DNA of 64,000 nt from Balanoglossus misakiensis (Eukaryota; Animalia; Hemichordata), in NCBI GenBank assembly GCA_040954595.2, contig CM082592.2:7179677-7243676 (forward strand). The letters are read 5' to 3'. Both the position numbers and the translations under genes were made by a program. Under the pieces are notes generated by a model. The model searched no databases and was not told where the DNA came from. It saw nothing but the letters and a program-made list of their open reading frames with translations. Below are positions 155 through 40,600 of this stretch, piece by piece. Position 1 is the first letter of the stretch, and every line of letters starts with the position of its first letter.

Positions 155-7576
<7,422 letters not shown>

Positions 7577-9396: not shown

Positions 9397-10642
9397 AACT
9401 CTATGGATGAAATTTAACTCAAAGTACCAACAAACGCCCACAGTTTGAAAGACGTCAACAATCCAATAATTGACAAATGTGGAGTATATAACTTTGAGAT
9501 ATATACATGCGCTTACACACACACTCAGACACGCTCATCTAACATATATACAAGGGGCATAATGGGATGCATATATTCTGCCCCCAAATATTTGACTTCC
9601 TCAGCAGGCCAGTTTATTAAACTGGAACACAGTCCAAATCCACTGTTTACTATGGTAAGGTTGGACCTCTAAAGAGGGAACTGGGGGTGAAAGGCTTAAC
9701 TTGGCCATTCTGAGTGCTATCACAGTCCCTCTGTTGTGGGACTGTGGTGTTCTCAAAACAGAAGACGGAGATAGAGGCTGACCATTACATACTTCTCTCG
9801 CTTTGCTGACGACGCGGCCACTCCCAAAGTCTACAAACGTTAAACTTGGTTTTCAGAGAGGAAAAAGCGACACCACTACACATACATACACATACAATGT
9901 ATCTATTATTCTGCTACATGGTGATAATTAAATTTGTTTATATAGTATCATTCAGAGTCTCCGTCGAAATGTGCAATCTTACGCTGATCAACAGCTTCAC
10001 TACCATCAGTGTATTTACAAATGAAAGAAAAAAAATGCTCACATACAAAACTGCACACTAACTTTTCAAGTCATGTACCACAAACAACCGGGACCATATT
10101 TCTGTGTTAAAACACTTGTTTGCCTTAATATCTATATTACTTTAACGATATAATGACCACGTTTCTAAAAAAGTCAACTATTTGAGGGAACTGGGTCAAA
10201 GGGCAAACGGTTTCAACATCAACCTCTGCAGAGATGTAATTCAAACTCTGGTTTATATGAATAGAATACGTTGCAAGAACCTCCAAGCACTACACCGTGA
10301 ATCTTTGGGACAGAATACTGTATATCATACATGATTTACACCGGTATTAGAAAAAAAAAATGTGTTGGTTAAATTATCTATTTTTCTCCTTGTGTTTGCA
10401 CATATACGAGCACACGTAGATATTGTCAATATTAAATATAAAGCAAAACATATTCAAATCAATCTTAGAACACTGAATGCCTGTTAGTTTGGGAATTGAT
10501 TTATTGGCAGTGATGCGCCTTCCAGAGGGGGAGGGGTGATGGTGAACAAAAGAACTGTAATTCTGATCACCAGAGGGCGAGCTAACGAGTACAAATCGTG
10601 AATTGCGGGGTTCTTGGAAGGTATTCAAATGACGTGTGTTAA

Positions 10643-13600
10643 TCATATGTACTCTTCGACACTAACAGCACTGTCAGGTGATTCGTCGTGGTTCTTGGAA
10701 GTCGGCGAGTCGGGAGAGTCCCTCTTGGCGCTGATTTTGATGTTAAAATCGTCGCTGAAAATGTGGTCTGATATCGACTTGTCCTTGTCCTCATCAGAAA
10801 TGCTTCCTCGGGTTCTGGGCGTGCTGTCTATGTCAGAGTATCTGCTTGAGTACCTGGAGTGAACGAAACGAGAAGGATTTATTTTTTCATCAGACATGGA
10901 CATTGTGCAGGAGAGAAATTGCTTTCTCCTAAAATGAAAATTCTTCAAAAGATTTCCATACTTTTCAACATCAAAAATTGTCTGGTTCGAATTATTAAGA
11001 CAAACGAGAACGTACACTCTTGTTGCAAAAGTGTGGCGGCCATTTTGGATATCCATCAATATACATGTATAACTAAATCTGACATTATTCTCAATGCAAA
11101 ATAATTCTGTAATGACCAATATTTAAAAAAGAAAACAGAACAATGTCCAGTGACAATTTAACACTGTTTTTAATGTGAATTTCAAATCTGACTTTTTGGA
11201 CAGTACCTGCTGCTAACTGTCGTATTTGGCAACAAATCAGTGTCTCCCTCTGACCCGGATGTAAATGTTCTTGTTCTGGTACTGCTGCTGTATTTGGGCG
11301 TCTCTATACTACTGTAGCTATCGTCCACTCCCTCTGGCGATCGCCGCCTGGAGTACCTCAGCGAGGAGTCGGTGGAGCCTACACTGTCGCCCCGCTCTCT
11401 TGATAAGGGTGTTCGTTTGTGTTTCCGCAGCCATGTGTCAATGTCTCCGTCGCTGTCGGAACCGCTGTGAAAAAGAACAGAGACAGTTCTTTTTTGTCAA
11501 GATAAGTTCTCCCTTGCACTCCCACCTTCATATTATCAAATAAAAAAATAAATAAAAATAAAATAAACATTCAGGGGGAACCAAAGAAATTCGGCATGTG
11601 CTACCTGTCGTCCAAATCGCTGTCTTCCTCCAGCTGATCTTCAACAGCATTTTGTAAATCGTTAATTCTCCTGAATGCCAGTTTCAGATCGGCTTGAAGC
11701 GTCGACTGGGCCCCTTCCAACTCTTCAACTTGGCTCTCCTGCGGGTTGGATGAAAGTGAAATTAATGTAACAGCACACACAACAAACTCTGCTGACACCA
11801 AGACAGAGAAAATCATAAAGCTTCCCTAGGCTAGCACTTATTGAGATCAGTACCCCTTAACTTACCAGTTCATGCTTCTTACGGTTGGCATCGTCTTCTT
11901 TGATCTGCAACTCTAAGAATTCTTCCCTGAGATCTCGTAATTGCTTCTGTAGTTTTCTGTTCAACTCTTGCGCTTGTTGCTCTGAGCTTTTGACGGAGTC
12001 TTTCTCATTACTCAGTTTTTCTTGGCTCTCTTTCAATCTAAAAACTTGTGCCTGCAATACGAATGACCAAGATTATAATGTACAATGCTGCATATATAGT
12101 GAGGAGTGTGCATGCTGGTGTGATACAGACAGTGATTCTCTCTCTCTCCCTCTCTCTCTTTCTGTCACTCTCATGCATACCAGATTCATACACCACCCAA
12201 CATTTATATACACATTCTTGCTCTTACCTCTAATCTCTGTTTATGTGTTTGTTCTAGATCGAGTCTGGAATCCAAATCTCGGATCTTTCCTTCCAGTCTT
12301 GTCACATTACTCCTGTCAACTGTGGTCTCCACTAAATTATTGACCTTCAAATTCAGTTCTGCTACCTGCAAACATCAAACACAAACTTGTTCAAGTCCTT
12401 TCAAACATTTCTCAATCAAAATTCGCTTGTTGAAACTGCACACTTTTTTTTACCATGGTTTTATACAAAGAATGAACATTTCAGTATATTTTTGTCTACA
12501 ATACATGAAGGAATTTATGACCACTGACAACAATTTGGTATTAAAGTATTCGTGGTCTTACCCTCTCCTGGTAACTCTGCTTTTCACCGGTAAGCTCTGC
12601 AATGGTTGTGAGGTGATCATTGATTTCTTGTTGAGCCATGGACGCCTGTGACAGGAAAAAACACACAATGAACACGATTTCATATCTCTTACATGCCTGT
12701 ACAAATATCCCTGTAGCACCCAAATATCCAAAGCCAAATGAATCCAAGTCACTCCACTGACATTTCCCCTTTTGAACTCTGACCTGCACGTCAAACTAGT
12801 GACCTTTGACCTCCCCCTAGAGAACTGCCTGACACCTACTTGATGCACAATTGATTTGTGTTTTCTCATCAGTTCAGCGAAATCTTCTTCCTCATCATCC
12901 AGCTTGCTCTGTAAATCATTATTCTCCCTGGTCAGAGTCATCATTTTATGTTCGGCCTGTAAAATAAAAAAAGTTGTTTCTATAAAATCTTCCACACAAA
13001 ATATAAATTGCAAAAATTGGAGTTAAATCATAAGTACACAATTTGAGTGGATATGTCACAGTTTTAGACAGGTCGACTGTGAGGTAATAGGAGTGTTACC
13101 CCCTGGACACACTCAGATAGCTCTGACCCGATCCAGCTAAAGGGTTAGTGTAAGTCTTTAGTGGGTATATGTCCAGGGGGTAACCACCCTAGAACAATCT
13201 CTTATGTCTGCATTTCCCACTTACTTCTGCTTTTGTTCTAGACACGATGTCCAACTGCTGCTGCAGATCAGCAATTTCCTCTTCCATGCTTTTCCTGGAC
13301 TTCGTGGCAGCCTGGGACATGTACTGGGCTTCCTCCAGCTGCAACGGAAACACAGGTGTTGTGTCGATTCAAACCTGCACACTTTTCAACTCTAGTATAC
13401 CATCGTAACATTATCTTATGCCAAACACCAGATCCATGCTAACATCACATAATAATTGCAGTATAGGGGTATTTCTTTTGTTCCAATGTTCCTACTTTTC
13501 TCACCAGAAATCACCTGACGAATACTACCTGAGCTCTTTCTGGACACAAACACCTTGCCCTATCATCGTTTTCTCACCTCGTGCTGCAGTTGTTTGACGG

Positions 13601-16600
13601 TGGTTTTGCTGATGGCCGACTCCTTCTGTTTATCCAACATGAGCTGGGCGTCGTGCAGCAAGGCTTTGGTTTTCCTCAGGTCCTTCCGCAGCCTCTTCTC
13701 CGTATCCTTGTCGGCCGTCGTCACGACTTCCTGCTTCTCCTTCAACTTTCTCTCCAGTTCCTTCTTCTCCTTCTGGATGCTCTGTTTCTCCATGTACTCA
13801 TCATCCAGCTGTGCTTCCAAGTATTTCACCTGAAATCAAGAATCGTAATGCAGAATCCTCAGAAACCTGCCTCAAACCTTTCCATTCTTCTTAGTTCTAG
13901 TGAATTCATTCAAGCAGACAAATATTCTTTCTGAAATTTAGACGTTTCTGACCCTAACGGCCAGGGCAGCCACACAAAAAAGTGCACCACCAAATGACCA
14001 CCACATATGACCTTTTCACACCATATATGGGCATATGTAAAGAAGTGATTGTACTGCTTCAAGTCTGAAATTCGACAAATGTTAATTTACCCTCTTCTGA
14101 CTGTTAGTCCTGATTTCTTCCACATCCTCTTCCTTGCTGTCCAACTCTTTTTGATAATCCTGTTTCACGTTCTGTAGCTGCATTTCCAGTCGTAACTTGG
14201 CCTGGATGACACCCAAGAAAGAAATCAGATTATAAGCTGGTCCCAAGAAGATATCACAGACGTTAACTCAGCTATTAAAACAAGAATATGGCTTATATTT
14301 TGTGTTAAACACGAAATAAAATTCTCACTACCAGGAAAATCTGCAGCTTGGGGTCATATTTTTGCATCCAATTCCAAGAACAGGACAATGTCACACTCAC
14401 AGAAGGCATGTACCTGTGCTTGCATCAGAACGACTAGTTTGCTCTCACTCATAATTGTAACTGAACAACCAAAACTCACTTGCTCCAACATTTGCACGGT
14501 CCCAGCCTGGTCGTCTAGTTCCTCTTCCTGATCCCTGCACTTCGACTGCAGCTCTCGTATCGTTCTCTTCAAGTCCAGGATCTCGTTCTCGTCCTTGCCA
14601 CCCCTCGACGTCAGGTCCCTCAACTCGGTCTGCAACTGTTCCACTTTGTCCTCCAGTTGGTACACTTCTCCTTTCTTGTCCTGTCGACATACAGAAAGAT
14701 TTTTTTTTTTAAATACTTGCATCGGTTCTCAAGTTTTTGTGGTGGATGGACATACAATGATACATACAATGATACATACATACAATGATACATACAATGA
14801 TACATACATACATACAATGATACATACATACATACATACATACATACATACATACATACATACATACATACATACATACATACATACATACATACATACA
14901 TACATACATACAGACATACATACATACATACCCGGTACATACAGACATACAGACAGCTCCATTGCCATACCATATATAGCAAAGGGGATCTAAAAATAAA
15001 GATTCAATACAACTCAATGCCTATAATAATTTTTAAAAGGGACACAGTAGCTGTAACTTTTCATTATTTTATTATTTTGGTCTCTGCTTGGATAGATGAG
15101 ATGACCAGTAGATACTCACATCAAGCTGACTTGTGAGCTGATAGAGTTCTGTCTCAACGTGTTCCTTCTCGCGTTGCATCTTCTCCTTGGCATGTTTCTC
15201 GGTTTTGGCTTCTTCGTGCGCCCTGGCTAGTTCCGCATCAAACCTGAGGTCGGAAAGACCAAGGACAGATTCAGCACTGACGGTAAAGGGTTGAATGTCA
15301 CACTGTGGGCCTTGAAAATGAACCGCAATACTTACTTTCTTTGTTTTTTCTCTAAGCCTGAATTTCTGGCCTGTTGTGATTCCTGGTGTAGTTTCATGTC
15401 TTGCAGTTCACTCGTCTGTTTCTGGTATTTTCTCTTCAGACTGGCGATTAACCGGCGATCTTCTTCAATTTCTTCAAGTGCTTCAGCCAGCTACACATCA
15501 AGCAAAAATAACATACAGTGTCAGTTGGTGACAGCAGCGAGTCTATACCTTGCAATGCAGTACTAATGAAACTTTCTGTAGTAGGGACTCTAGGGAGGTA
15601 GGTAATGTATGTTGTTGGCAACAGACATCTTATTTCTCTACTCCAGCAAAAACACCCTTACCTTCCGGTCCACGGCTTTCTTGGTCGCCTGAACTTTCTC
15701 AACTTCTTCCTCCTGTTCATTCTGCATTTTCTTCTTGATGAATTCAATCTCTCGCCGGGCTCTCTCGTACTTCTGCCGATAAATCGAGTCCGTCCCTGTC
15801 AAGTTGGTGGAAAGATCATGAGTTATGGGTTCGAAGTGACGCACCAAACACAAACAAAACCAGACGTGCCTACATTTTTTTGGCGAAATAAGAATATATC
15901 CCCTGTAAGAGTTACACACCCCACTCTGATGATTAACCTGCATATGAAATGATCCTATGGCCTCACATGACGGGGGGAAAGTTTACTGAAATGTATGACG
16001 GATCCGGATTCTGTATAATACAGAGTGGGCTTTGCACCAGCAAGCACATGCAAGACCCCTTGCACGGACACACAGACGAGTACTTTTTCAGGGGGTCATG
16101 TCCACAGTATGGCGACCAACCAAAAGGAAAAAAAATATCAGACAGATGCAGAAATATCTACTCTAGAATCTACCAGATGAAAGATGGAATTAGTAAGTGG
16201 AGGTTAGATAATTCAACCATAAAATGTCACCCAAAACTTTTCACATCATGAGAGCAAAAATCCGAGGGAATATGAAATGGACCAGAAACTAGTGGATAAA
16301 ATGCAAGTAAAAAAAGCACCAGGTGTATTGCGATGACACAAGTAAGGTACGTCTTTTTTTTTGCATGAAGCAGTGTTTATTTTCAGCAGCCCAGCCAGCC
16401 AGCCAGACAAACCCGAGATTTAGGTTTTTGGTTTCTACCTCTCTTTATCCTTAGCAGCTGACGAACTACAGGTTTTCCTGGATTTGGAGAATACGGGTTA
16501 CAAACGGAAAAAAGATACATACACGAGTAGGGAGAGAGAATATATGAGCGTGGAAGAGAATATGATCGAGAGAGAGAGAGTGTGAGTTAAAGGAGAAACG

Positions 16601-19600
16601 ATTCCTAAGATTTGCTACTTTGTGTGTTAGGGTTGAAATCTACTGTGGAAATGGTATCATATGTAGTTGTGAAGTTAGAGGTTTTACACTTAGCAATTTG
16701 TTTCAGAAGGAATGGCTAATAGAAAAAGCTCAAAGAATGCATTGGAGAGATTCCAAATTACATTTATAAAATGCTCATTGTATTGCTACTCATAATTTCA
16801 ATTGCTCTATTTTTTTAAATAAATCATAAATTTTCTGAGAGCAAACCAACGATGTTTCTAGTATGTATACTAACCATCAGTTTCTTCATCACTGTCCATG
16901 TCTCCATCAATACTTGACGCTCTGAGTCTCGCCTCCATCACTTCCATCTCCATCTTCTCGTTCTTTCTCTGCAGAGTGTTGTACGAAGTCTGCAAGAACA
17001 AAAAGCACGATTTTTGACAAACTCTTAATAAAAACCCAGCATATCACATATACATTCCTTCAATAAAAACCACACAAGTTATACTCATCTCACATCACTG
17101 CTTATAAAATATGATAATTATCCAGTGTGTATTTATTTTCTTGCCTTGAGATCTTTCAGTTCCTTTTCCAGTCTCATTCTTTCCGCAGTTTCTGCTTCCA
17201 GTACTTCCGAGGCGTGCGTGGCTGTTCCGTGTTCCTCCTGTAGATCCGTGGTCATTTCACTCAGCTGCAAAGGGTGACAGACATATTGAAAATCCTGGCA
17301 TGTAAAACATTTCTCAGAAATCTGATCCAACACTTCAAAGGTATTGAAAACACTGCTTTTCTTCAAAAGATTCAAAACTCCGCCATTTGAAACTGAAATT
17401 CATTAATCTGTAGAGAACTCACCTTTGATTCCATGCGCTCATAGTTCTGTTTCAGCTCGTTTCTCTCTTTCTCCAACTTTTGGAATTTAACTTTCAGCTG
17501 TTCAAGTTCCACCTGCAGATAAAATATAAGTGATCGATCATATTTAATACACGATATCTCAAAACGTTGTTCGCGGTCGTCTATATCACATGAACACATT
17601 CAGTTTTTTAAATAATTCAACTGCTGTCACAAACTATTTTATCAATCCATGTAAAAATAATTCAAAACTGTAAACTTGTGACTTACATCCTTGACTCGAA
17701 GTTCTTCCTCCGTACGATGGACATCTAGCAACGGGGTTACCTTGGTCAGCAGACGCCACCACGACCAATTACGAACTTGAATGTATTTCCGTACGTTGCG
17801 TTGTATACACGTAATTGCTATGGTTTGAATCTGTACAGGCAAGAACAGAATGGAAAAAATACAGGGTCAGACTAAATTTTGGCGCTGGACAGGGTTCAAA
17901 GGTTAATGATACTTGCAGAAATCCAAGTTTGACAGAAATCTAGAAATTTGTGGCCATGATTTTGGACCAAGGTGTAATGTATCCTGATTTTCCAGAAAAA
18001 TCTCACCTTCATTCGTTTGAGTTTCTTCCTACCAAGGAAACCCCTGCAATAGGCCTGAAGGCCTACGATAACATCTGTCAGCTTTTCATCTCTGGCATCT
18101 TCCAACTGACCTAGTGAGCCTGACCTGAAAAATACCTGTTAAGCGGAAAACACAAGTTTTTGTTAATTTCTAGCTGACCAGTCAAGTGACCAGTCAAGTA
18201 TCTTCACCCACACACTCATGACAAGCCACATATAATGACGCATTTCAGAATGATAAAGTCAATATTTCAAATATGACAAAAAGAACTCAACCCGTACCCT
18301 GATATGTTCAAGGTCACACGCCCAATCACCCTATTATCAATCATCATTGGATAAAACCTCAAAACAAATAAAAGACAAATCTCAAATAGCCCTCGGGTAG
18401 AAATAAAGCTGACAAGGTAAGTACACAAAAACGCAAGGTTCCGTGTGGTACAACGAATTGACTGAACAGCGAAGTGAGTAGGAGTGACCTAGATATATTG
18501 AGGTCACACCAGGTAATGCACAGAGAGTTGTCAGGATTATCCAATTCTGTGGAATGAAATGTTTTGGAACAGATTTGACCCTGATGTCAATCATGTGTAA
18601 AGGTCAACTGAGGATATAGGATAAAAAAGAAAACAAAAGAACAACTGTCGCATCTATTCATACAATTGAAAGCATGTCTTTTTGCACTATCACACAAACT
18701 TTCATGTATAAATCATTTGCTTCATCTTTACTCCCATTGATTAAATTGGAAATCCGCTTTAAGCAATCTGTCATCGATATTGAAAGCACACAACATTTAC
18801 AATGGATCGGCTTTGAAATAACTGATTCAACTGTAAGAAACGTGATCCACGTTATTTTCTGAGTTGAGATGAGATGCCATGTGGGGAATCAAGAATCTCT
18901 TTCCAAAGCCTGTCAGCTTCACATAAATGTATGGGGCAAAACCAACCATGTTGACCTTGAACCGTGGAATAAGGTCACTATCATGGGTCATATCACAACC
19001 AGGTGATGTGTGGAGACCACTCCAACATATCAAACTCGAGATTACAACTTCATGAAGAACCACTTCAGGACACTGTGTGGACGCAGAGAGTAAACAAACA
19101 GACATAAAAGAAACAAGTAGAAAACAAATAGAACAGGAATCTTTGTCCTTTTATGTGATTAAAGTGCCATACCACTTCAGTTTGATATGCTATTGCGTGC
19201 CACTCAGATTTTCAACACGTAACTCTTTACTCTGTAAAATTCTCCCTCCACAGAAATTCAGATTTTTGACACACTTTTCTCTCCGAATCTGAGCGTAATT
19301 TAAAAATGAAAATGTACAACTACTCATGTCTGAATAAAGATTGTTGGCATTAAATATTGAATTTTCATCTGAATTTTTTGCTCCTAATATTTTGTTGTCG
19401 AACATCTGGTCCTGACAGATTCCATGGCCATAAATTGAAAATAATCTGGTGTTGAATTCATTGTGGTGTCGGTGATATTTTATAGCCAGTGGTGTAGTAT
19501 GGTGTTTCTATGGTAACAGCATCACCATAGATACGCCATATCTCCAGGTAATTGTGACGTCCTACAAAGGCAGTGTACCACAATAATGGTAATACCTACT

Positions 19601-22600
19601 GTTTATACCCCAGGGGACAACCTGCCAATTAATTCTCCACAAACTCCCTGGAACCGAAACCCCATCATTACATTTATGCCTTTGCTGAGGCAAATTACAA
19701 ATTTATCTACAGAGATTTACTACATTGGCGTGCTGTGTTGTCCTATTACACAATGGCTAATAACAATGGCTGGGATTACAGGTGATAGGGCATGCAGCTG
19801 GAATTATAGTTACATCGGTGGGCTTGACATTGTCTGCCTACAGCAAAGCAGCCACGCAAAACTACAGTTACAATCAATACATGTTATTCTCTGCTACAGC
19901 CACCTCATTAAATTTTCAGCAGGCGACAACTGTTTTGTCGTATACCAACACAAAAATACCGCAATACCTACATAATGTACCGGGGTGCAAATCAATTGTA
20001 AGATCAATACGGACAAACAGGGGAAGCGTGCTTTTTGTGAACATATAAACTGATGGCTACACTTTAAAAAAGTCAACGTGAGACCGCAGCATCTGAATAT
20101 TGTCAGGTGAGCATGGCAACAGGATGTCAACGGATTACTGCCATACTGTCCAGGTGGAAAATGTAGTGGGGGTTTCGTGAATCAATTTTTTATAAGGTTT
20201 TGAATGAAATCGAAGATTTGAGAAACCACGGAAATCCATCGGAAGTGAACGATGACCACCGCATCTGTATTGAAATTAAAATAAACACAGAAACTGACAA
20301 CAGGGAGTCTGACAAGGAGACGAGACGTTTAGCAGCAAGGTGTCGTTACCTCGTTGTGATCGCATCCAAAAGGCACATGAACCCAGCAGCGGTACTTGGA
20401 ATGTCCTTGGCAGTCACGCGACACAGAAGTCTCAGAGTGATAGACAACCGGCTCCGGAGTCACCATCATCATTAAGTAAAATAGCCATAGCAAAACATCC
20501 ACGCAAAGAAAAATATTAAGTACAACTGCCCCTGTGCATAGCGTTAGCCTGTTAGCTAGCTAAGCAGAGTGGCGCGTTTACGAGTGTCATAGTCACTGAT
20601 GCATCCATCTGCACAAAAGATAAACATGTAACGCTGTCAACCTAGAAAACTGAAGTGTATCTTTTCAGCGCAGGCGTACTGGCCTCAAGAGTAATTCATA
20701 TGCAAATCGCTTGTGCATCAAGTGATGATTATACCGAGGGATTTGGCAAACAGCAAGCAACGACAATCTCAAGGAGATTTAAAAAACCATGGAGCAAGAC
20801 AGTTACGTAACACTCGTCTCTGCTGACGCATCTGAAAAATGCATCAAATTGATGATTATCAATGCTGTATCAAATTCTCACCATATGCTAGAGTACAACT
20901 GAATTTCATTCATAGATTCTAGCAAGTCATAAGAGGGAAATATCATTCTGGTTTGTGTAAAACTCACAAGATATGTCTATCAACACTGATTACGTTGTTT
21001 AGTCATAATACCAGGTTTGATCAAATTATTTCCCTATTAATGAGGTTGTGAATGAAGTGGTATGAATTTTGAAATTCAAGATAACGAGGTTGGATTTCAA
21101 AGAAGGCTTCAAGGAATTTCTTCGGATCTCACATTGGTGGTGGTGGTGGTGGTAGGCTGCGAATCTTGTCTTTTAGATGAGATAATAATCATGTTTTTTT
21201 TAACCATAAAGAGTTATACAAGCACAAAAAACAACATGAAGGCAAGGTTTCTGTTTTTGATTAACAGGTGGTTCTACAGAGGGCACTACAGAGGACCACC
21301 TTAAACACCGAGTTCAACTTGGGGTCAAAAGTGTTTAACGCAGCTCTCTCCAGAAAAAAAACATGCATATAAAAGACAATGTCTTTTTTTTACCATCGGC
21401 AAACATTAGAAGCTGAAAAAGCCTTTGAAGATCAATTTTGGCGCCGCACAACCTTGATGATCATTGAGAAAATAGGCGTGTACAAATTGCAATGTGTGCG
21501 GGGGTCTTTGTCCGAGCTTAGAATCTGAACCCATTAGCTGACCTGTGACCTGACCTTCTGACCTTTCTATGTCTTGAGGTGCAGCACATAATGCGGGTTC
21601 CATTATAGAAGTGTGCAATCTGTCAGACTGTCTGAACACCCGTCCAGAGATGTAAGACAAAGTCTAGCTCCGGGGGAATCATAGAATGCCTCTTTGTACC
21701 AAAAATAGGTATTAGTTGTTTGCTATTACTCCGAGCTAAAAGTGGGACCACATGATTGGTCCACGCTACAAAGACCGGATTAAAATTCAAGTGATTCTGG
21801 GGTCATGGAGAGCACAGTGTTGCCATGGTTATAGGAGTGAGCTGCATTACAATGATACTGAATTTTGTAAACAGTCAGCCATGCAACGGAAGTTGAGGGC
21901 AGAAGAAAAACAGGGATTTGGCAATCTCAAATAATTTATGGTTTGTTGTCAAAACATAAACTTTGATGTGGTAAAAACCGTTCCACTAATTCACTGTCCT
22001 TCAGTGATAATCTATCTTGCCAAACAACTTAAACAGAGAGAGATGGGTTGGTTAAGTTTCCAAAGGCCAACTGGAAATATACCACTACCAAACTTTCCCC
22101 ACCGTACAACTCTATCTGTACCAGAAAGACATAGTCTTGGCTAATACCTGCAACACTCAACAAAAGCCCCACATGACATGAACGGGACATGCCAACACAA
22201 AACATGCACTGGAATTGTTGGAATTTACAGAGGAAACCGTCTGCAGTCGAAAAAAAAAAGTGACCCAGACTAGAAACTTTCAGAGAGGACTTGCGTTCAA
22301 AACCACCCTGGTGTTTGTCACTTTGCTTGCATTTTCAGATTCAGAATGAGTGATTTTGCAACCACATTTCCAATTTCTGAGATCACTAACTCTTTGTAAC
22401 GGAGAGAGAGAGACGCGTCTGCTAATTCCACAGGGACTGCATTGACAGGTGACCGGGGTATTGTCATGTGCCGCAATGCCCCTGAACTGGCAACAATACT
22501 GAAGAATTTCTGATATGTCGCCTAAAAAAGGACAGATTATTTCTAATTGAATTAGTGTAAATAAAATATGCAAGTGCTACTCCTGTACATGGAATAATTT

Positions 22601-25600
22601 TTTTGAGTGCTGACAGTGTTGTTAAATCACCATGATAAAACAAAATTGTAAAATTCGGTCTGCCGTGCTTGTGATCCATCCCTTTTCCACAGTACGTGCT
22701 CAGACGTAGAAACGAAACGAATTACCCGACACAAAAGACCAAACGACCTGCGCCAAGAGTAAAAAGGCAACTCACGCTGTCGAGACGGCAGCGATCCTCC
22801 TCTTCGAACGACTGCAAACTCACCAGACGAACAACTCGGCATTTCCACGCGAAACCGTTCGGAGAAAGTCCACTTTTCAGGGTCATTGAGACGCTACCGC
22901 CGACTCCACATAGCAGACGAAACAAGAACGACGACGCAAAACTGGATGCTGACTCTCAGTGTTGGTGAATGAATGAATGAATGAGGGGGAGATTTCACCT
23001 TGCGCTAATTTGATTTCAGGACAAATAATGCTGTCACTCACGTGGAAAATGCATACGTAAGCCGGCCAGCGGTGTCCTTAGTGAAGAACATGACACTGCC
23101 TGTGCATAAACTACAATGCGCAATCCATTGTTCTGTCATCTGTGGACACGCTTGCGGGTCTTGATCTAATCTTTTTTTTTCTCCGTTCCGATAATTAACG
23201 CCAATACAAGTAGATTAATTAGAGTGGGTTGGTTCGAAGCCAAGGAGGCCCTCATTCCTCACGTAACAATCTGAGATACAGCACGCAATTTTTTTACTGA
23301 ATTCCAACAGCGGAAACTCAAATGCGTGGGCTCGCTTTGCGAACAGAACAAATGAACATACCAGAACTGGTCCCCAATTGAGGTATTTTTAGGACTATTT
23401 TTTCCACAAACAGAGGATGTTTTGAAATCAATCATTCACATGCCCCCAGCACTGTTAGTGTCAACCGATATAACCTTGTAAAGCTGGAGGGATTTACAGT
23501 TGAAGGGATGTTTTCATCGGAACTCTTTAACAGAAGATAAATCTTTACACGGCTTTTCATTTCTATCGCGGACTTAAACAAATAAGGTCTTGCACATTTA
23601 GAAATAAATGAGCAGCTGAATACGGACGGCCTCATCGGAAATCAATCTTCAAAATCTGTCACGGAAGCACTAGGTGTAGTAATCCCGAACGTGCCAAACC
23701 AAGCGTTCAACTTAGATTTTTTTAACACCTCAATGACACCAACTGTCAATGTTCTTGAGTTATATATCTTTAGCTGGAAAACTAGTTCACAGGTCAGAGT
23801 GAGAAAAATTGGCTGTCTATTTTGAAAGATTACTAGGTTACATTCCTGTGTTTTTCTAGGTGATGTGATGGAGCAGAGTAGGAGATAAGCCCCTGCCTTT
23901 GCAGGTGCAAACGCAGGTCACAGAACTATGCAAGTGGTGTTTACCTGTCAGATGACATGTGCGTGGTCCCTGAAACGTGTGTGCATGTACAAATGAGAAG
24001 ACGATGTAAATAAAAAATGCGTATGATCTATATTGGGCAAAAGCAAGTCATCAGAAACTTTAACGACAAAAGAACAGAAAGGATGGGTGTGAGTGTCAAA
24101 TGAACCTTGTCGTAATTTATATCAACTGTCATTGAAACAGTTTGGATAGTAACAGAGGAGCCCAACAGAGGGCGCTCTTCTTATCCACCAAATTCTCACG
24201 GAATCTGACAAAGGAAGGACGGAGGGATTGTGTACGGATTAAGTGAATTAATTTGTCAGAACATGTTTTCTGCCGGGATAAATTCACCCGCAAATTCTTC
24301 AGAGATGGTTCCAGAATACCACTCATTGTTTCTTCTTTTCAAAAGTGGAAGAAGAGTTTTTTTGGTAATGATTGAAACAGGAATTGCTTTGTTCACAGCG
24401 CCTTAAAGCTGTCAACCCGAGGTATAGTGTTAAACCATTTGGAGGTGAAAACCAATTATGAAACAAAAGCTTGGGGTGGGAGTCCTCACAGCTTGGATAG
24501 ACTCCCTCACAATTTCTATTAATCCCCCCAAAACCCCCATTGTCATACTTCACATCCTGCGACAGTTGTTCAGAGTAAATAACGTTGAGGCAAAATAAAA
24601 ATAAAATGTCAAAATTCACCCTTGGCATTCCACTCGTCACCATTTGTCAATGCAAAACTAATCGGTTGTTGATCAACTTTTTCTGAGTTTATGCTTCAGA
24701 GAAACAATTACATGTTCTTCAGCTAATCCATGCCGTGTGCATGCAGGGGTTCAGCTGTGATGACACAAAGTATTGAAAATTCATGCTGTCTTTCACTAAT
24801 TAAGTTAACAGCTATCTTCTTCTAAACCAACACATAACCATGACAACAAATCGTTTCAGACCCTAGACAACACAGTGGCTTTCTCTTTGTGTCTGGACCA
24901 ATCAGTGTGCTTCAACCCTCCTGGGGGAAACGGGATGACGATTTACCTTTTGTCAGAGGTCAAACGGCAGACATCCTAATTGCCAAAGCGAGCCACTTGG
25001 AGTAGTAAACAAACAATTGTGCAAAACAAGCTAGAGGTCAATCACCCCGCGGGAAGGCGTTGTGCCACCACCTTTAGTGAGGCACATTGATTTCACTTCA
25101 AGGATGGAATTCCTTCAGATTAAGACATCGTCGGGAACAATGAACGGTTAGCAGACATCGATGACGTGACATGATTGATATTAGATTTATAGCCGGACTT
25201 GCCAATGACAGCTGAAGAACTGAATCGTCAAATAGCTGCCTCACGGCGATATGGCAGTGAGCAGTCCCTTCTCATGCAAAGGAAGGCCTGACGTCAGTAG
25301 CTGCAAATTCTCTTTAATTGCATTGAGATTGAAACATTACAAAAGCCAGGGCCAATTTCATAAATATCACAAAATCCAATCTTAAGAAGGAAATCTCTTT
25401 GTATACACCACCATGCAACTGATTTCAACATATCCCAAAAAGCACAGAATATTACCAGTTATGCAATCTAACATGCCAGACCACCAAATCAACATCATGT
25501 ACATCAGCAGAAAATGTACTTTTCAAGTAAAAGATACGTTTGATGATTTATGTCAGCAGGTACTATACTAGTTGTTAGCCATCTTCCAACATGTCATTAA

Positions 25601-28600
25601 ACATGGTGGTTTAATCGACCAAAGTCAATTATTTTCAGCTATAAATGTCACACATAAAAGTCAAAAATCTGGAGAACACCTGCAAACCTAACAGAACATT
25701 CTCACTCGGTGAAAAACACACATTCTGGGCAGCACTATTGTCTACTGTGGAGTGCTAATCCTTTTTGAAAGTCTGTGTTGACATTGTATAATTATTGTCA
25801 AACTACTGGAATCAAATCTCCATGTGCAACTCAATGGGTGTGTTTTTTAGCACGAAACCGTGAAAACTAATACAGTAATCTTAAACATGGAAATGCAGGC
25901 CAGATAAAGGAATGCTACTATTAATGGATCTTTTTCTGAAACGTTATTTCTTGTGTGAATATACACCTGAGTTTAGTTACACCTCCCCCTCCAATAGACT
26001 GATTACATTTGGTTTTAATTTTACATGGTTCTTGTAGCAATTGGTTATGATTAATCTTTGTATCTCAGTTAGAGTCAGACTTGCTCGGCCATAGGCCCAC
26101 TATGATTAGTTTTTGGTCCAAAGGATCAGGTAGGACCATAAAAATGTGTTGACACAAATGTTGCAAATTCTCAGATGTACACAGAACAGTCCTGTTTCGT
26201 CAATGCATTCCCCTACATAGTATGATCTTTTTTTTTACGTCAATTGGTATAACACACGAGTTATATAACTCAGGGTTTTTAAAAAACACCATTGTCCAGA
26301 ATCGGGCACACAGCTAGCTATTGTCACCACAGCGAGGTGTTTGTCACACCGGAATAGATGAAAACATCCCGGATAATCCAAATCTGTCTTACATTCCAAC
26401 AACGAAAAAGAATAAACCTACGGAATGACGGATGGCATACGGCGAGACTAGACAGACATTCGAGTTACCAACCTTAGGTTCATTATTGTTGTTGAACGAC
26501 TTCAACACGACCAGTTTCCTCTTGGTCGCCGGAATGAAATTGATCGCTGGTGGTGGTGTGGTCATGTTCTCCGGAGGCGACCTCCACCGTACGTCCGTGA
26601 AATCTCACATCAATAAAACAAAATTTCCAGCGGATCTTAGCTGTATTGATCTTCGCAGACAAAGTGCAACGGACAGGCTGTTCTGCTCAGTCTGACATTA
26701 AATGATTGTTTTTTTCCTCCGAGTATTCGAATCCACTCGGTTGTCTAGTGTCCACGCGTCTCCTCAGGCTAACTGGAATCCCCACAATACAAGCCTCAGA
26801 TCTCCTTTTCCGATGCATACATCAACAACAGGGAGACAAAATAACGGGAGGTGTCGCTGTCCGCTGGACGTGGGCCCAATCAATGAATGGAAACACGGCT
26901 GCCTATTGTTAGCGGCGACTAAAAGCGAGGGGGGGGGGGGGGTGGCCTTTTTTTTGTCGCTGGCAAATTATTGCATATTAACTGTAATCCTATTGTTCTG
27001 TACCCCATTCACAGCCTCCAAGAGTCATCGCAACGACGTCGCCCCTTCAGAACCTGAACAAGCACAACCTCAGTGCATCACCTCCTTGTCGCGTTTGTGG
27101 GAAAAACCTAGCAGATGACCACTTTATTTTCTGCTCCACAACGTGCTATCAGGGGGACTCTATCTCTCGTTACATAACAGCCTGACAGAAATGAACCTCC
27201 AGGGAAATGATAGCAACATCTGATTTGATTAGCCACACCACTAGACATATTTACAATGTACACTTCCGAGTGTCAACACTAAACACTGGCAAGTGTCTGA
27301 GCCACTGTTTTGTCATCAAACATACCTGTACTGATCAAAATAATTATAACAGCCTTCCCCACCCCCCAAAAAATGAAATTTACATCGGCACCACTTGTCT
27401 CAAAATAAGCCTAATTTTGAACACTCGCTCTTCCCAGCTGCCAAAACTGTGGAATCTGATTTGAAAGAATTTGCTAAATCGGATTTCTGGTATCACCTGA
27501 TCAATCTTGAAATGGATTTGTTTGCGTACATGAAGTTGGAGGCCAGTCAAGTATGTGTTTGTACCTTGTCTATAAACAAGATTCATACCAATTATTCCAA
27601 TCCTGGTTATGTTACTGGGTGATTCAAAAATATCTTCAGGGGAGAAAATGATCGTTTTCATGATCCTTGTAATGTTTAGTTTAAATAATTTTCACAATAA
27701 AGTAACACAACAGATGGCCAGGAAAATGATATTAGATTAAAATTCACAGCTGTGTAGTGTGTAATCACTAATCCAAGGATATACGATATTCAAAAAAATA
27801 TGAATAACTGTAATGGAATCATGGCAAAGATTGTTCCACAAGAGGCTGCTTGTTTGTTAACCTAACACCTCTTTAAGGAGATATGCCCCTCCCCCTCAGA
27901 GGGGGTTGTTTTCACAGCCAATCTGTTGATAAAGAGGAGGGGGGGGGGGTAACATGACTGTCTGCTTATTAGCATGCAAATGGCAGGCTCTTATAACTGT
28001 CTGGAGAGAACAGCTGTAAATCATATCTGTAGACAAGAGGCATGCAGAGTACAATCTCCAGTGATGACAGTCTTGACTTCAGGTCAGTCATCTTGAGACG
28101 TGAGACGCAAATATACAATCACATGTATAAACAATCCCAGCTAATCAACTTCTAACATTTAAACCATTTCATGGGGCCAAGCACAGAACAGACAGAATAC
28201 ATGTACCCCAAAAATCCATAACAGGCCTCTCCCTAACTTTTCATCAATACTTATTTTGAATATGAACCCTGGAAAGATCAATATCATGATAACTGTTACA
28301 ATACAGCTAATTGATTTATTTTGATCCTTGCATGGACAAAACCATAGTCAGTGAAAGGGGTAACATGAAAAGTAATATAATGGTATACTGGTACTACTGC
28401 TGTACGCAGCTAGCAAACTTCCCATTTGGTCCAAGCTCAACAACCACACATATGCAACACAACGACTTTATACAACATACAAACACCACCAGTAAAAGAT
28501 CACACACATACACATACCAATACTCTCACTCTGCAGATTAATTAATTAAAGGCAGTATCATTACCTGGCTTAGGCCCAGTCTGTAATTCAAGGCATCAAT

Positions 28601-34600: not shown

Positions 34601-37600
34601 GAAGCCGAGCCCTCGAATTTCACACTGGGGTGGTGGACTGCGTAATTCGGCCAGCCACACCAGCGATCGGCCACTTCGCCTTGACCAACCCCAACGCATG
34701 TCGGAACATCTAGGGGGGATTGCCTTGTACAACACAACGGTGTTAGGATTCCCCTTTGTGGAGTTCTTTCTTCCCGAGTCAAAGAAACCAGAACCACAAG
34801 TCCGTGCGACAGAGGAACTGCGACAAAACACAAAGACGCCTTTTGTCCTTTTTTCAAGGATACCGTTCACTGGTTGTGATTCGTCTTAAAACATCCATTG
34901 TCAAACAACTGTGGGCTGGAGTATTACTATATAATGCCTCCAAGAAACTGTATACCTTGGGAAAATCCTACTGTTGTACATTGTGCGTCAAGCTTAACTC
35001 TTGCTTTTGGAGTTAATTTCATTGCGGATGGAGTATTTTCTCACGTCATCAGGTGGATTTCACACTAAGCTGTGTCAAGCACAGGTATGTGTATTTCTGG
35101 TAATACCGGTTATCCTTACATACGTGACTTACGTAATTACAAGGTCAATTTTCTTTCAAACCACTACCATTATTACCACCACCACCACCATCATCATCAC
35201 CATCACCATCATCAACATGACCATCATCTATGCTATGCTATCTCATGTGCATATTTTGACAACCATGGATCATAGTTGCACATTAACAGACACATTTCAA
35301 AACTCAGTGATGAACTCTAAAACAATGCCATGATACTGTTGATCACATTCCATCCACTAGTGCATCTGCCACAATAAAAGTACCGGTATTCTGATTTAAG
35401 CACAGAGATATGACCAGCCCAGGAGACATTACATATTTTTGTCTACCACATAGTCATGTCACATATTTCGGATTTTCATAACTCAATCAAAACCAATTAA
35501 AATAATTACTCCGATTGGTCAAGCAACTCATTTGTTCACACAGATTATGATGACATCATATAACTATGTCACAGCTTGCTATTTAGGCAACCTTCTCTCA
35601 ATTAAATATTTCAGATATCTTGAATTGTTAATTTTTTTAATGTGTTCTCATATTAGATCAACAAATGGAAACAAGGGTTCAAATATCAAATAACCTGTTC
35701 AGAGTTAAACTTTAACAAAAAAATTAAACATGAATGATCAGATGAACAGTTTTTTCCTGAAGGAGAGTGAAAAAGGGTGCCTCAATATTTGTTAATATTT
35801 CACCGATTTTGTAAAATTTGGACAATGGGCGGTTGAAATTAGAACAGACTGTATTGCGAGACCATATTAATAATTCAGTGAAACTGTGTATTACCTAATA
35901 TTATAACTGTCCCTGGGAGGCCATTTTGAATATAAAATATGACTCAGACAGAGACAATAGATGTGTAATTTTGCAAACGACTACCAGGACATCTATTTCT
36001 GAAATTTTGTTGATAACTGCACGCAGAAGTATGCAGCAAAATCTGTTTAGGTGAACTGTTATCACATTAGTTTCTGATGATGTAACTTTTGAAATCTGTA
36101 CACTGTACAAAGCTGTGATTGGTTTATGTTTTATCAGATTGCAGTCTACAGGTGATGTGTATATTCTATGGGTAAACTATTAATAAGGAGGGGTCTTGAG
36201 AAATAAAAGTAGGTCAAAAAGTGAGTAGTAATGAACACTAAGGAAGTGTATATACTGTTACGTGAAATCCAACGTGATCAAATCGTTACATATCACTGGT
36301 TCCCTTTTCCGCAGAATACAACACTTGAACTACAATATATTATATAATATGTACTTGTACCCAGATATAGACACTGAGAAATACTATCTATGATTGCCAA
36401 AAATTCCCATTGCAACATCAAGCCAAACCTTTGCAATACCCTTATCCACCTCGGGGCTAAACATATTTGTTTGCTGTGAGTGTGTTTGACGTACCGCTTT
36501 CAAAAGTTGCTGCAAATCGACGAGTTCTGAGTCTTCCATGTCCAGCTGTGGTACAGACACGCCGAATCGTCCCGGTCTGCGTTCGGTTGTTGATCTCTCT
36601 AATTAGAACTGACATTCAGACTCGCCATGGCGGTATTGTGTCAGACAAAGCTCGTTCTTAATGACCGGCCTATGCACAACCCAGCGAAGGTAAACACACG
36701 GTGGAATGTGAACTCCTAGGTGAGCTGGTCAAAATCAAGTTTGCAGGGTTTTGTCCACCAGCAAGAACGGGGTAAATCCGTTCATCAAATATCCTCCTCC
36801 CCTCACAGGCCGGATTAACTCTAACACTCACAATGCAGCCACATCACCAGGGCACTCTTAGCGTTTTAAAACCACACTGCCTTGAATTAAGTTATATTGC
36901 ACCTGCCTAATGGGGGCAATTTAATGGGGTGCCAGAATCTATCCCTCATTTCAGTGCCACCCACCCCTCTAACGAAGTAGTCCAGCCCAAATATCAATTC
37001 AGGATTGCTGAATTATCTGATTTCATGGGGTTTCATATTTGGTTTGGCACTGAGGGTCCCTCCCTATCTTCATTGGGAGCCTATAATTTAGTTCTGCCTG
37101 CAGTAGCTAAGAAGTGCTTGAGTGACTGATCGACTTCAATCATGTAAATGCTACATATGATACATCAAGTGTACCGCAAGGGGCGATCCCACCTCCCCAG
37201 CTTTTTAATAGATGCCGGCTGCAACCAGTAACTTTGCTTTCTCGTTATTTGGATTGATATGGCCAGGAACTAGGTAAGTTGAATGTATAGTTTTGAAACG
37301 TCCTTCAAAACTCCACTTCAACCCTTGGGATTTTTTTTAGAGGGAGGAGGGGGTCATAAACTTGACAGGAAGCTATAAAATAGACAAACACAAATATCCG
37401 ATGACTACTTGAAACTGAAACCAAACATTGGACAGCAGAATATTTCACCTGTTGATGAACAACAGAAAATACTGCATTTGAAACCTTGATTTGATGCCGT
37501 CATTTATGCAGATGTTTTTTTGCTGGTATTTCTTATAGTAAATTTCAGCATGCGAGGGCAAGGGAGAAAACTCCACTAGTCGTGTTCTGGTAAAATTATC

Positions 37601-40600
37601 ACATTTATCAATCATACCCAGACCCCCCTTGTGCACATATTAAACTGACTTAATTATAGACTCATTAACATTATTTATGATTGTTCCATACTAATTAGTG
37701 CGTGTTTACCTTGGCCAATTCGGGGATGGATTCCCACTGTTACAGCATTCAAAATTTGTTTATTCTGTCAGCATGTGGAACATCCCCCAGGGGTATTCAC
37801 AAGCTTATCCTTCTCAGGACAGATGCAGGCTTTGCAGATAATGCACCCAGCACTAAGCTTAAAAAGTGGAGGGTCACTTTGCAGACTCCCACTTGAATTG
37901 TAAAATTGACATGCACACAATATGTCCATGTCCAGGTTTATGATAATTTACTGCAGCTCAAGTACTCCGCAAACACATACGCTTGAAGTTGCTGGGTTTG
38001 TAGTTGAAGGAGTGGCCCTACTGACAGAGCCACTGTTTGCGATGGCAGATACAAGTCTAAACTTGACACACTTTTGGCGGACACTTTGCAAGGACACTGT
38101 GAATGGGGAGAGCTGCGGTTTAAACCCCCCGGTTGTTTAAAGTCATGAGTTTGGATGAACACATAGAAATGAGGCACCAAAGTCCAGAGGGTTCAACTAT
38201 ACTCCGTGTACAAGCAGAGATTGTTGATTCACTCTATCAATATTATCATCACCAAACTTCCAAACATTTCATACGGTAATTGGTAACACCGGAGGCCAAT
38301 CGCATCAAACAGATGAACTCACTAATAAATATGATCCTGACAATTCAACTATTTTAACGAGATTAAAATTCACAAAAATGGATCAAGATATAGTTTTCAA
38401 AGCCCACACTACTCTCTGTGGTGAATTAAAAATAGTTATCAATCTCAATGAAATGAGGAAGGACTGGGCTCATGACATGATCTCTCTGACCCGAGTTTTG
38501 TTTTTCATAACATCACAAAAGTTCATCACATAATGGTGGTCATTAAAGTGGCTAGAGCTTCTTAAATTACTCAGACGCTAAACACAATTTCTCCTCAGGT
38601 CCTCAGTAAACTGTTGATAGCTGCCAAAGTGTTAAACTATTTGTATCAAATTTTTCTTTCTCCTGTTCTTAAACCTTCACAGAATCATACCAACATCGTA
38701 TTCTAATATCATGTACGTTGCATCTTTTTTCTCTAACTTTTGATTATAAGTATTTGAGAACAGCCTTGAATCAATATCTTTATTAAAAATTGCAGATAAC
38801 TTCAACAGCCTCAGGCTGAGAAAAATAGTTTTGTTCAAGATTGCATGCACACAGATGATATCCATACAGTCTGCGTAGCATTCCATTGTCTTATCTGTGG
38901 ACATGCTGCCAACAGTTGGATAAACTATCCAGCAAAACACATTTTTGCTGCAGACTATATTCTGAAATGTACATGTATAGAGGGAAATGAACAGATTGGC
39001 AAGTGAAATGAAACTCATGATGTCACAGGTCACTGGGGTCAGGGGTCAAAGGGTCAAGCACCAGTGACAGTTGTCATTTCCCTGGTTTGTGTCTGATATC
39101 ATACTCACCGATCCCAAAAGGAATGGTAATTTAATATTTATAGGCTCTCCGAAAAAACCTACTCATGCATAAGATATGAAACTATGGCTTTATAGTCCTC
39201 TGGTTCTTTGTCATACAAGAGACACATCAGTCAAACCTATATCTGCAATTGTCTTTTGGAGTTTTCAACTGTGTACAGACACCAAGGTGTACAACATACA
39301 TGTACATGTACATGATGACATGACGCACTTAAGAATAACGTCCCCTAGATGACCAGCTCGGTGCCAACATAAAACTGTCCACCGACTGACAGACAATGAT
39401 GATCATGTTTCCTGATGACCATCAATAGAGAGGACAATACCCTCCCAAAGATTTAACGGGTGGTTTAAGTGTTTCGTGTCCGAACATGACAATGGCGATA
39501 ATCTCATCGCTTACCGGTCTCAGTCGGATCTCGAAGTAGCTTCTTTTGGGGTACATGATGCCGGGCCACGGTCTTGGGAGTCGCTGGAGTTTTCTGGAGT
39601 CTGTAACGCGAGGAGGCGTGGCAAGCACCTTAAAGAAACTGGTCAGTCATGGGATAGACACAGCAGCTACTGCATCAACGAAAGGAAACGCAGCTCACGT
39701 CGTCGTCGGGAGAGAGTGGGAATCTACGGTTATCAACCACCATAGCTCAGACTGATATTGAGAGAGACCGCGATGATAATCGCCCGACAAATGAGCGGTC
39801 AGCGTGTGATATTACCATCCTTGTATGGAATGAATGGTATGAAACGCACCCTGCCTGGGGAGATTGGCCTCCGGTGTCGGATTACACTCTGGCCGACCAC
39901 TAAACAGACCCCATGTATGTTGGATGTGTGTACATACACACATACACATACACATAAAGAAGACACTCTACATGTGATGAGAAACTCGCAAATATTATGA
40001 TGCATCTTCCATCCTTCCGTGCCGTGGTAAGTCTCCGTTTTCAATTATCAATACGATACTGCAGAAAGCATCAACTCTTGCAAACAAGTCGCAGGAGAAA
40101 ACTTGAGGCATGATGCTGGAACAATGCCCCGCCATTGTTTAATGCGTAAATGGAAGCAGTACGCTCTTTACTTGATACAGTCCACACATTGCACGTCTGT
40201 CCCTGACACACTTTCCCACGGGGGGAATGGGGACATGACATTGCTAATACACCACACAGACCACAATCATGAAAACCTGTAACACATATTGCACTTCTTG
40301 ATGTGTGTGCCAATCCAATATCATCTTCTTCAGGAAGTTCCCCTGCTGAGAAAGTCGCACGCACGGATTACGACTTCTCTGTGATGTAACTCGCGTTTGA
40401 GCGTGCAGGCAGCTCGCTCCACTGTGAGGGTATAGGCATGAGCAGGGCTTGACTGTAAGTCATGTAGGCCTGTTATGAGTGACTGGTTTCAAAGGCTGCG
40501 TGACATGGAGGTTAGCTGTCTGCAAGGTATACTGTATCTGTTGGACATCGACATCATAAAGAAGGCATTTAGAGACTTTAACAAGTAAGATCAAGTGTTG

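What the first reader, a model, noticed from the sequence alone, without database searches (positions are those of the whole stretch)
18136..28564. Array of candidate alternative first exons for headless myosin-18 at the motor/lever-arm junction
Seen in sequence: most myosin-18 introns here are ~0.1-0.5 kb, but the one between ..YRLGLSQ and VFFRSG.. is 10.4 kb and phase 0. Inside it are four separate sense-strand segments that start at an ATG, contain no stop and end at a GT donor exactly in phase 0: 26473-26565 (31 aa), 22776/22824-22886 (37/21 aa, two gtgagt donors, both in frame), 21133-21192 (20 aa) and 20350-20472 (41 aa). Three lie in visibly CpG-richer patches. Inference: these are internal promoters producing ~940-aa motor-less IQ + coiled-coil + tail proteins with interchangeable N-terminal peptides. 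Established: headless myosin-10 arises from an internal promoter, and myosin-18A co-assembles with non-muscle myosin-2 filaments via its coiled coil. Tail-only forms could therefore act as tissue-specific filament adaptors or dominant negatives. Some candidates may be chance matches.
Basis: partly seen in the sequence, partly recalled or inferred. Interest (0 to 1): 0.85.

Follow-up and report, generated by a model that had tools for sequence, protein, structure and literature searches.

The report
Hidden starts for headless myosin-18
A very long intron in an acorn-worm-like myosin-18 gene likely hides one to three internal start exons that would make motor-less "neck plus tail" versions of the protein, an arrangement already on record at the same position in fruit flies and other insects.

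Summary
The 10,429-nt phase-0 intron and all five ATG-to-GT segments are real. The gene is myosin-18, closest to Ptychodera flava. Four such segments are what chance gives (shuffles 3.3±1.8, P(≥4)=0.43), and phase 0 is not clearly enriched. Three other lines support internal starts. (1) Motor-less myosin-18 joined at exactly this junction is annotated in many insects and a sea urchin, including Drosophila Mhcl isoform C. (2) The gene's other giant intron holds two short ATG-to-GT phase-0 exons in CpG-rich patches that match annotated first exons of relatives. (3) Three candidates sit in this intron's three most CpG-rich patches. Ranking: 22886 > 26565 > 20472; 21192 is probably chance. Against: no headless form turned up for Ptychodera or Glandiceps, and no peptide matched a relative's N-terminus. 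Expression is untested. The scan noted headless forms of other myosin classes on other DNA, none for myosin-18. Verdict: new member of a known kind.

The parts
18136..28564 (-). 10,429-nt phase-0 intron between the last motor-domain exon and the first lever-arm (IQ) exon of myosin-18
   Evidence: intron sizes; a myosin-18 intron at the same position in loci such as L001, L003, L022, L032, L055
18007..18135 (-). Shared acceptor exon starting VFFRSG, with an IQ motif; in-frame Met at its codon 42
   Evidence: Pfam PF00612 E 2.7e-4, above cut-off; Met positions
22824..22886 (-). Best candidate first exon (21 aa), strong donor, in the most CpG-rich patch of the intron; my estimate about 0.55 real
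   Evidence: donor score 6.7, as good as 67% of the gene's real donors; patch 22706-23205 has 35 CpG, 4 sense and 0 antisense good donors, p about 0.007 for the patch, 1 of 6 patches tested
22776..22886 (-). Longer form of the same exon through a second in-frame donor (37 aa); about 0.25
   Evidence: donor score 2.6
26473..26565 (-). Second candidate first exon (31 aa), moderate donor, second most CpG-rich patch; about 0.45
   Evidence: donor 3.7, CpG 98th percentile; patch p 0.077
20350..20472 (-). Third candidate (41 aa), weak donor, third CpG patch, six ATGs in the 150 nt upstream; about 0.25
   Evidence: donor 1.1; patch p 0.15; upstream ATGs
21133..21192 (-). Probably chance: CpG-poor, frame partly held open by an ACC repeat; about 0.1
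   Evidence: CpG 30th percentile, donor 4.4; sequence
39515..39556 (-). Positive control: conserved 14-aa phase-0 first exon for a PDZ-less isoform, in the first long intron
   Evidence: 87% identity over 15 columns to the N-terminus of Glandiceps isoform X3 (P0297), E 2.4e-7; also matches P. flava X3/X4; top of 296 units; top CpG patch of that intron
36495..36539 (-). Positive control: 15-aa phase-0 first exon matching the N-terminus of P. flava isoform X5 (P0292)
   Evidence: ungapped score 32 against 7 for the next of 296 units, same length; third CpG patch of that intron
48830..49933 (-). First coding exon of the full-length form (KE-rich and PDZ region)
   Evidence: 86% identity to P. flava P0175 residues 1-367
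10639..17830 (-). Remaining lever-arm, coiled-coil and tail exons shared by all predicted forms; last two exons placed by splice sites and frame, weakly supported by homology

Best explanation
The long intron likely carries one to three internal promoters whose short first exons would splice in frame to the VFFRSG exon and give predicted motor-less myosin-18 proteins of about 960-980 residues. Shown: the intron, its phase, the open ATG-to-GT segments, the CpG-rich patches, and the 938-aa open frame downstream. Inferred: that the CpG patches are promoters and that the segments at 22886 and 26565 (less so 20472) are transcribed and spliced. The gene would then work as a three-tier cassette: PDZ + head + rod from the 5' promoter, head + rod from the first long intron, lever arm + rod from this intron. 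The short protein would keep the IQ light-chain sites and the coiled coil that dimerises and enters non-muscle myosin-2 filaments, and would lack the actin-binding head and PDZ end. It would most likely act as a filament-riding spacer or scaffold that brings tail partners without tethering actin, and could dilute full-length myosin-18.
For: Annotated proteins with IQ + myosin tail, no Myosin_head and an unrelated N-terminus joined exactly at (I/V)(F/L)FR: D. melanogaster Mhcl isoform C NP_732110.2 / GH16009p, 920 aa; Tribolium madens X5 (13-aa leader) and X3; Homalodisca X3 and X5; Phlebotomus, Lucilia, Atheta; Schistocerca, Bemisia, Lasioglossum, Strongylocentrotus. 29 of 45 proteins of 450+ aa with a recognised IQ exon, among the 119 new hits, had a non-motor junction by pattern; 12 of the 29 are named isoforms, the rest are gene predictions and at least 5 look like partial or wrong models. 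Three species show two different N-termini at this junction (T. madens, Homalodisca, D. erecta). Locus L032 shows a 665-codon ATG-to-GT phase-0 exon 990 nt upstream of the IFFR exon, homologous to the Lasioglossum headless N-terminus. In the window's own gene both short first exons known from relatives map to CpG patches ranked 1 and 3 of 6 in the other long intron. PMC3122231 states that shorter fly isoforms lack the PDZ or motor domain (passages).
Against: Four segments are at chance level and phase 0 is not clearly enriched. Only 1 of 6 patches passes a shuffle test (p 0.007, about 0.04 after six tests). No headless isoform among the 5 members of the P. flava cluster or the 3 of the Glandiceps cluster, and no hemichordate headless protein among the 120 listed of 216 hits up to 1102 aa. 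No candidate peptide matches the N-terminus of a relative: 34 long and 42 short proteins by tblastn gave only weak stray hits away from the candidates, 15 by anchored scoring gave a top score of 14; all these relatives are distant. Most annotated headless N-termini are long (200-1500 aa), and this intron has no long ORF (output partly cut). The sea-urchin model could be a split gene (4 of 4 named members share one N-terminus). The pre-IQ intron is not the clear size outlier in L003 or L022.
Confidence: 0.65

Rival explanations
1. The ATG-to-GT segments are chance. The intron is long because it holds enhancers or other non-coding elements, and the CpG patches do not start any myosin-18 transcript.
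For: Chance-level count; no clear phase-0 excess; no headless isoform found for the two closest annotated relatives; no peptide conservation. Conserved blocks in the same intron of other animals keep no reading frame.
Against: The true first exons in the other long intron also fail the shuffle test (p 0.29 and 0.45; donors 0.2 and -0.9), so the test has little power. The junction is a documented entry point in many species. The top patch has 4 sense and 0 antisense good donors.
Confidence: 0.22
2. The promoters are real but the first exons are untranslated or use other donors, and translation starts at the Met at codon 42 of the acceptor exon. The product would lack the first IQ motif and all forms would be one protein.
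For: In-frame Met at codon 42. Headless Myo10 uses three start sites in one intron with a 5'-UTR-only exon (PMC5725431, passages). Wyeomyia isoforms X1, X4 and X6 begin at a Met near this point. Good sense donors out of phase exist, e.g. after 23042 and 26393. Sense units in CpG patches exceed antisense in all phases (6/4/5 against 2/0/2).
Against: Both control exons of this gene are coding and in phase. The best donor of the top patch is in phase 0 with an ATG.
Confidence: 0.1
3. The segments are internal cassette exons inserted between motor and lever arm of full-length myosin-18.
For: They are open and end in phase 0, so an in-frame insert is formally possible.
Against: No polypyrimidine-AG acceptor pattern within 250 nt upstream of any of the four ATGs; the P. 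flava isoform compared has no insert at the junction.
Confidence: 0.03

Closest known systems
Drosophila melanogaster Mhcl (myosin-18) isoform C, NP_732110.2 / UniProt Q8IH49 (GH16009p), and the motor-less isoforms noted in PMC3122231
   Same: Same gene class, same junction residue, short unique leader (61 aa) then IQ + myosin tail, no motor; 920 aa against about 960-980 predicted here. A second, 546-aa N-terminus is annotated at the same junction in D. simulans, mauritiana and erecta.
   Different: Leader sequences are unrelated. The fly form is a database record with a cDNA-style clone name; the forms here are predicted. This would be a deuterostome case with only short leaders.
Annotated headless myosin-18 isoforms of Tribolium, Homalodisca, Schistocerca, Bemisia, Lasioglossum and Strongylocentrotus
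   Same: Join at the same residue; several species have two N-termini.
   Different: Mostly long low-complexity N-termini; computed RefSeq models whose RNA support I did not see.
Drosophila myosin rod protein (Mrp) and molluscan catchin/myorod
   Same: Motor-less rod from an alternative start inside a myosin heavy-chain gene; Mrp N-termini are poorly conserved (PMC3912159, passages).
   Different: Class II muscle myosin; they start after the light-chain-binding domain, whereas these forms would keep the IQ region.
Headless Myo10 of mammals
   Same: Several alternative start sites in one intron feeding one acceptor; proposed dominant negative or scaffold (PMC5725431, passages).
   Different: Different class; first exon is 5' UTR; the full-length protein is an active motor, unlike myosin-18.

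Membership tests
Myosin class 18 (host gene) | PDZ region, motor domain, IQ, long coiled coil, collinear with named myosin-18 proteins | tested here: met
   32 tblastn segments cover P. flava myosin-XVIIIa-like P0175 in order, mostly 85-95% identity within exons; P0175 carries PDZ, Myosin_head and Myosin_tail_1
Headless myosin-18 isoform (Mhcl isoform C type) | Phase-0 intron directly before the (I/V)FFR exon | tested here: met
   junction identical to that
Headless myosin-18 isoform (Mhcl isoform C type) | ATG-started open exon inside that intron ending at a phase-0 donor | tested here: met
   present, but the number alone is at chance level
Headless myosin-18 isoform (Mhcl isoform C type) | Transcript starts in the intron and is spliced to the IQ exon | not testable with these tools
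   no sequencing run could be listed; no genome held
Headless myosin-18 isoform (Mhcl isoform C type) | Leader conserved, or isoform annotated, in close relatives | tested here: inconclusive
Myosin rod protein / catchin | Class II muscle myosin gene; start after the light-chain-binding domain | tested here: not met
   class 18 gene; acceptor exon carries an IQ motif; definition from PMC3912159 passages
Headless Myo10 | Class X gene; 5'-UTR-only first exon | tested here: not met
   class 18 gene; works-like resemblance only

The most novel reading that the evidence does not exclude
The motor/lever-arm intron of myosin-18 is an ancient entry point, kept in both protostomes and deuterostomes, for a headless, light-chain-binding myosin-18 rod with fast-evolving swappable N-termini. 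This acorn-worm gene uses two or three such promoters, so a largely unstudied motor-less class is a standard product of the gene and tunes myosin-2 filaments tissue by tissue.
Probability: 0.35. Interest if true: 0.62.

Novelty: new member of a known kind. Interest (0 to 1): 0.4.

Why it matters
Myosin-18 is a pseudo-motor whose function is debated. The review read (PMC7900500, passages) lists only head-bearing vertebrate isoforms. If headless forms from one conserved junction occur in insects, a sea urchin and an acorn worm, then rod and tail can work without the head, and tail antibodies or knock-outs aimed at 5' exons may miss or mix isoforms. The architecture itself is already in databases for insects, so this locus adds breadth rather than a new principle. 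Searches found no paper on the conservation or function of headless myosin-18 beyond one statement in PMC3122231; the library lacks most subscription papers, and Bonn 2013 and Cross 2004 (a 110-kDa Myo18A form) were seen only as citations.

Tried and rejected
RNA run search on 17500-27400: no RNA holder was listed, which is no evidence either way; no reads could be laid. No whole genome is held. Homologue search with the 43-aa IQ exon alone: 10 candidates, none significant. Rfam over 18000-49000: 0 matches. Self-blast of the intron against the window: no repeat printed, so the CpG patches are not repeated within the window. Pfam on the four peptides tested: 0 families. tblastx and blastn of the intron against the pre-IQ introns of 8 of 63 loci: none. 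Conserved blocks in the pre-IQ intron of L001/L003/L004/L012 were examined as possible coding first exons or a nested gene and rejected: no frame stays open. Intron size in other animals was inconclusive. My first guess of amphioxus was rejected: 47% identity against 77% for Ptychodera over all segments. A generic donor matrix and one trained on the gene's 33 GT donors gave the same picture. Look-ups of earlier scan notes by place and sequence showed nothing. Cross 2004 (PMC1224155) is not held. No supplements were read; those of PMC3122231 were not checked and its Figure 1A, which maps the fly isoforms, is not held.
Full report
Observation. The gene lies on the minus strand. 32 of 35 introns are 560 nt or less; the exceptions are 14,639, 10,429 and 1,079 nt (boundaries placed by hand and homology). 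From acceptor 18135 the frame is open for 938 aa, and the acceptor exon carries an IQ motif. The gene is myosin-18: it is collinear with Ptychodera flava XP_070572199 (P0175), mostly 85-95% identical within exons, and next closest to Glandiceps among 25 proteins compared. An acorn worm near Ptychodera is therefore inferred.

Chance. With a donor matrix trained on the gene's 33 GT donors, ATG-open-GT units of 8+ codons number 15/11/17 (phases 0/1/2) on the sense strand and 15/10/9 on the antisense strand at score ≥0, and 8/3/5 against 7/4/6 at ≥2. 300 block-wise dinucleotide shuffles give 3.27±1.79 phase-0 loci of 20+ codons; P(≥4)=0.43; the real intron has 7 ATGs at 6 places, P=0.04. Context separates the candidates. 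The three most CpG-rich of six 500-nt patches are 22706-23205 (35 CpG), 26436-26935 (30) and 20226-20725 (23), and each holds one candidate. Only the first passes a local shuffle test (best phase-0 donor p 0.007; 4 sense and 0 antisense good donors, p 0.006); the others give p 0.077 and 0.15. The 21192 segment is CpG-poor (30th percentile).

Positive control in the same gene. The other giant intron (48829-34191), between the PDZ exon and the motor, holds two short phase-0 ATG-to-GT segments that match annotated first exons of PDZ-less isoforms: 39556-39515 matches Glandiceps X3 (E 2.4e-7) and P. flava X3/X4, and 36539-36495 matches P. flava X5 (score 32 against 7 for the next of 296 units). 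They lie in CpG patches ranked 1 and 3 of 6, have weak donors (0.2 and -0.9) and fail the shuffle test (p 0.29, 0.45). So in this gene a long intron with CpG patches does mark short coding first exons, and the shuffle test has little power.

Relatives. A search of 1.84 billion representatives with a tail exon (150 of 216 hits listed) returned proteins with IQ and myosin tail but no Myosin_head whose unrelated N-terminus joins exactly at the IFFR residue. They are RefSeq isoforms of Strongylocentrotus, Schistocerca, Bemisia and Lasioglossum; a Diachasmimorpha isoform joins its PDZ part directly to IFFR. A search for proteins up to 1102 aa (120 of 216 listed) added more: of 45 proteins of 450+ aa with a recognised IQ exon, 29 had a non-motor junction by pattern, 12 of them named isoforms; the rest are predictions and at least 5 look partial or wrong. 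They include D. melanogaster Mhcl isoform C (920 aa, 61-aa leader, GH16009p) and Tribolium madens X5 (13-aa leader). T. madens, Homalodisca and D. erecta each show two N-termini at this junction. Locus L032 shows the genomic form: a 665-codon ATG-to-GT exon, phase 0, 990 nt upstream of the IFFR exon. Other motor-less representatives enter about 120 residues later; the matching intron in the window is only 158 nt.

Results against. The P. flava cluster has 5 members and the Glandiceps cluster 3; all are 1668 aa or longer, and the short ones begin just before the motor. No hemichordate headless protein was listed. A headless form longer than 1102 aa, or one clustered elsewhere, would have been missed. 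None of the candidate peptides matched a relative's N-terminus, though all those relatives are distant. The sea-urchin model may be a split gene; this was not tested. The pre-IQ intron is not the clear outlier in L003 or L022. Expression could not be examined.

Mechanism. Inferred: CpG-rich internal promoters start transcripts whose short first exon supplies an ATG and splices in phase 0 to 18135, giving about 960-980 aa of lever arm, coiled coil and tail. From papers: fly myosin-18 heads bind actin but have no ATPase activity (PMC3122231, passages); the IQ region binds light chains, and the coiled coil dimerises and enters non-muscle myosin-2 filaments (PMC7900500, passages). The short form would therefore ride in myosin-2 filaments or pair with full-length myosin-18, carry light chains and tail partners, and lack the actin tether and PDZ end. 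None of this was tested here. Overall confidence 0.65 that at least one coding first exon is real; my estimates per candidate are 22886 about 0.55, 26565 about 0.45, 20472 about 0.25, 21192 about 0.1. A variant with untranslated first exons and a start at Met 42, as in headless Myo10 (PMC5725431, passages), gets 0.10; pure chance 0.22.

Comparison. It works like Mhcl isoform C and meets the two sequence features that could be tested; transcription could not be tested. PMC3122231 states that shorter fly isoforms lack the PDZ or motor domain. It is not a myosin rod protein or catchin, which come from class II genes and start after the light-chain domain (PMC3912159, passages; PMC4410989 seen as search listing only). 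Searches found no paper on the conservation or function of headless myosin-18; Bonn 2013 and Cross 2004 were seen only as citations. Earlier scan notes describe headless forms of myosin VIIa and a muscle myosin in other genomes; they were not tested and do not bear on this locus.

Verdict. Real feature, plausible and well precedented, with the array overstated. New member of a known kind; interest 0.4.

Noticed in passing
window 34191-48829 (-): Second giant intron (14.6 kb) with two conserved short first exons for PDZ-less myosin-18 (39556-39515, 36539-36495); a further CpG patch at 34491-34990 with a phase-0 unit 34564-34490 has no match so far.
   Followed up: partly
proteins P0019, P0026, P0028, P0029, P0051, P0091, P0146, P0147: A second entry point for motor-less myosin-18 about 120 residues after the IQ exon, with long low-complexity N-termini and no IQ; the matching window intron (17422-17265) is short.
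   Followed up: partly
protein P0121 (Diachasmimorpha X7): Annotated isoform that joins the PDZ part directly to the IQ exon, skipping the whole motor domain.
   Followed up: no
L012:655-727 and 1423-1494; L003 about 8144-8216 and 8710-8781: Two conserved blocks (75-79% identity) in the pre-IQ intron of distant myosin-18 loci, with no frame kept open; possibly regulatory or untranslated first exons.
   Followed up: partly
window 17144 (-): One myosin-18 intron uses a GC donor.
   Followed up: no
window about 1260-5700: About 4.4 kb of CA-rich simple repeat with extreme skew, between minus-strand exon-like frames (7323-6838, 5916-5725) that look like an SLC22-type transporter; that label is recalled, and Pfam gave no hit for 7323-6838.
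   Followed up: no
window about 52050-56750 (+): Exon-like frames of a plus-strand gene facing away from myosin-18, resembling a glycoside hydrolase/glucosidase (recalled label; Pfam gave no hit for two pieces).
   Followed up: no
window 62831-64000 (-): Open frame of 389+ aa running off the window end; looks like a BTB/BACK-domain protein (recalled label, not tested).
   Followed up: no
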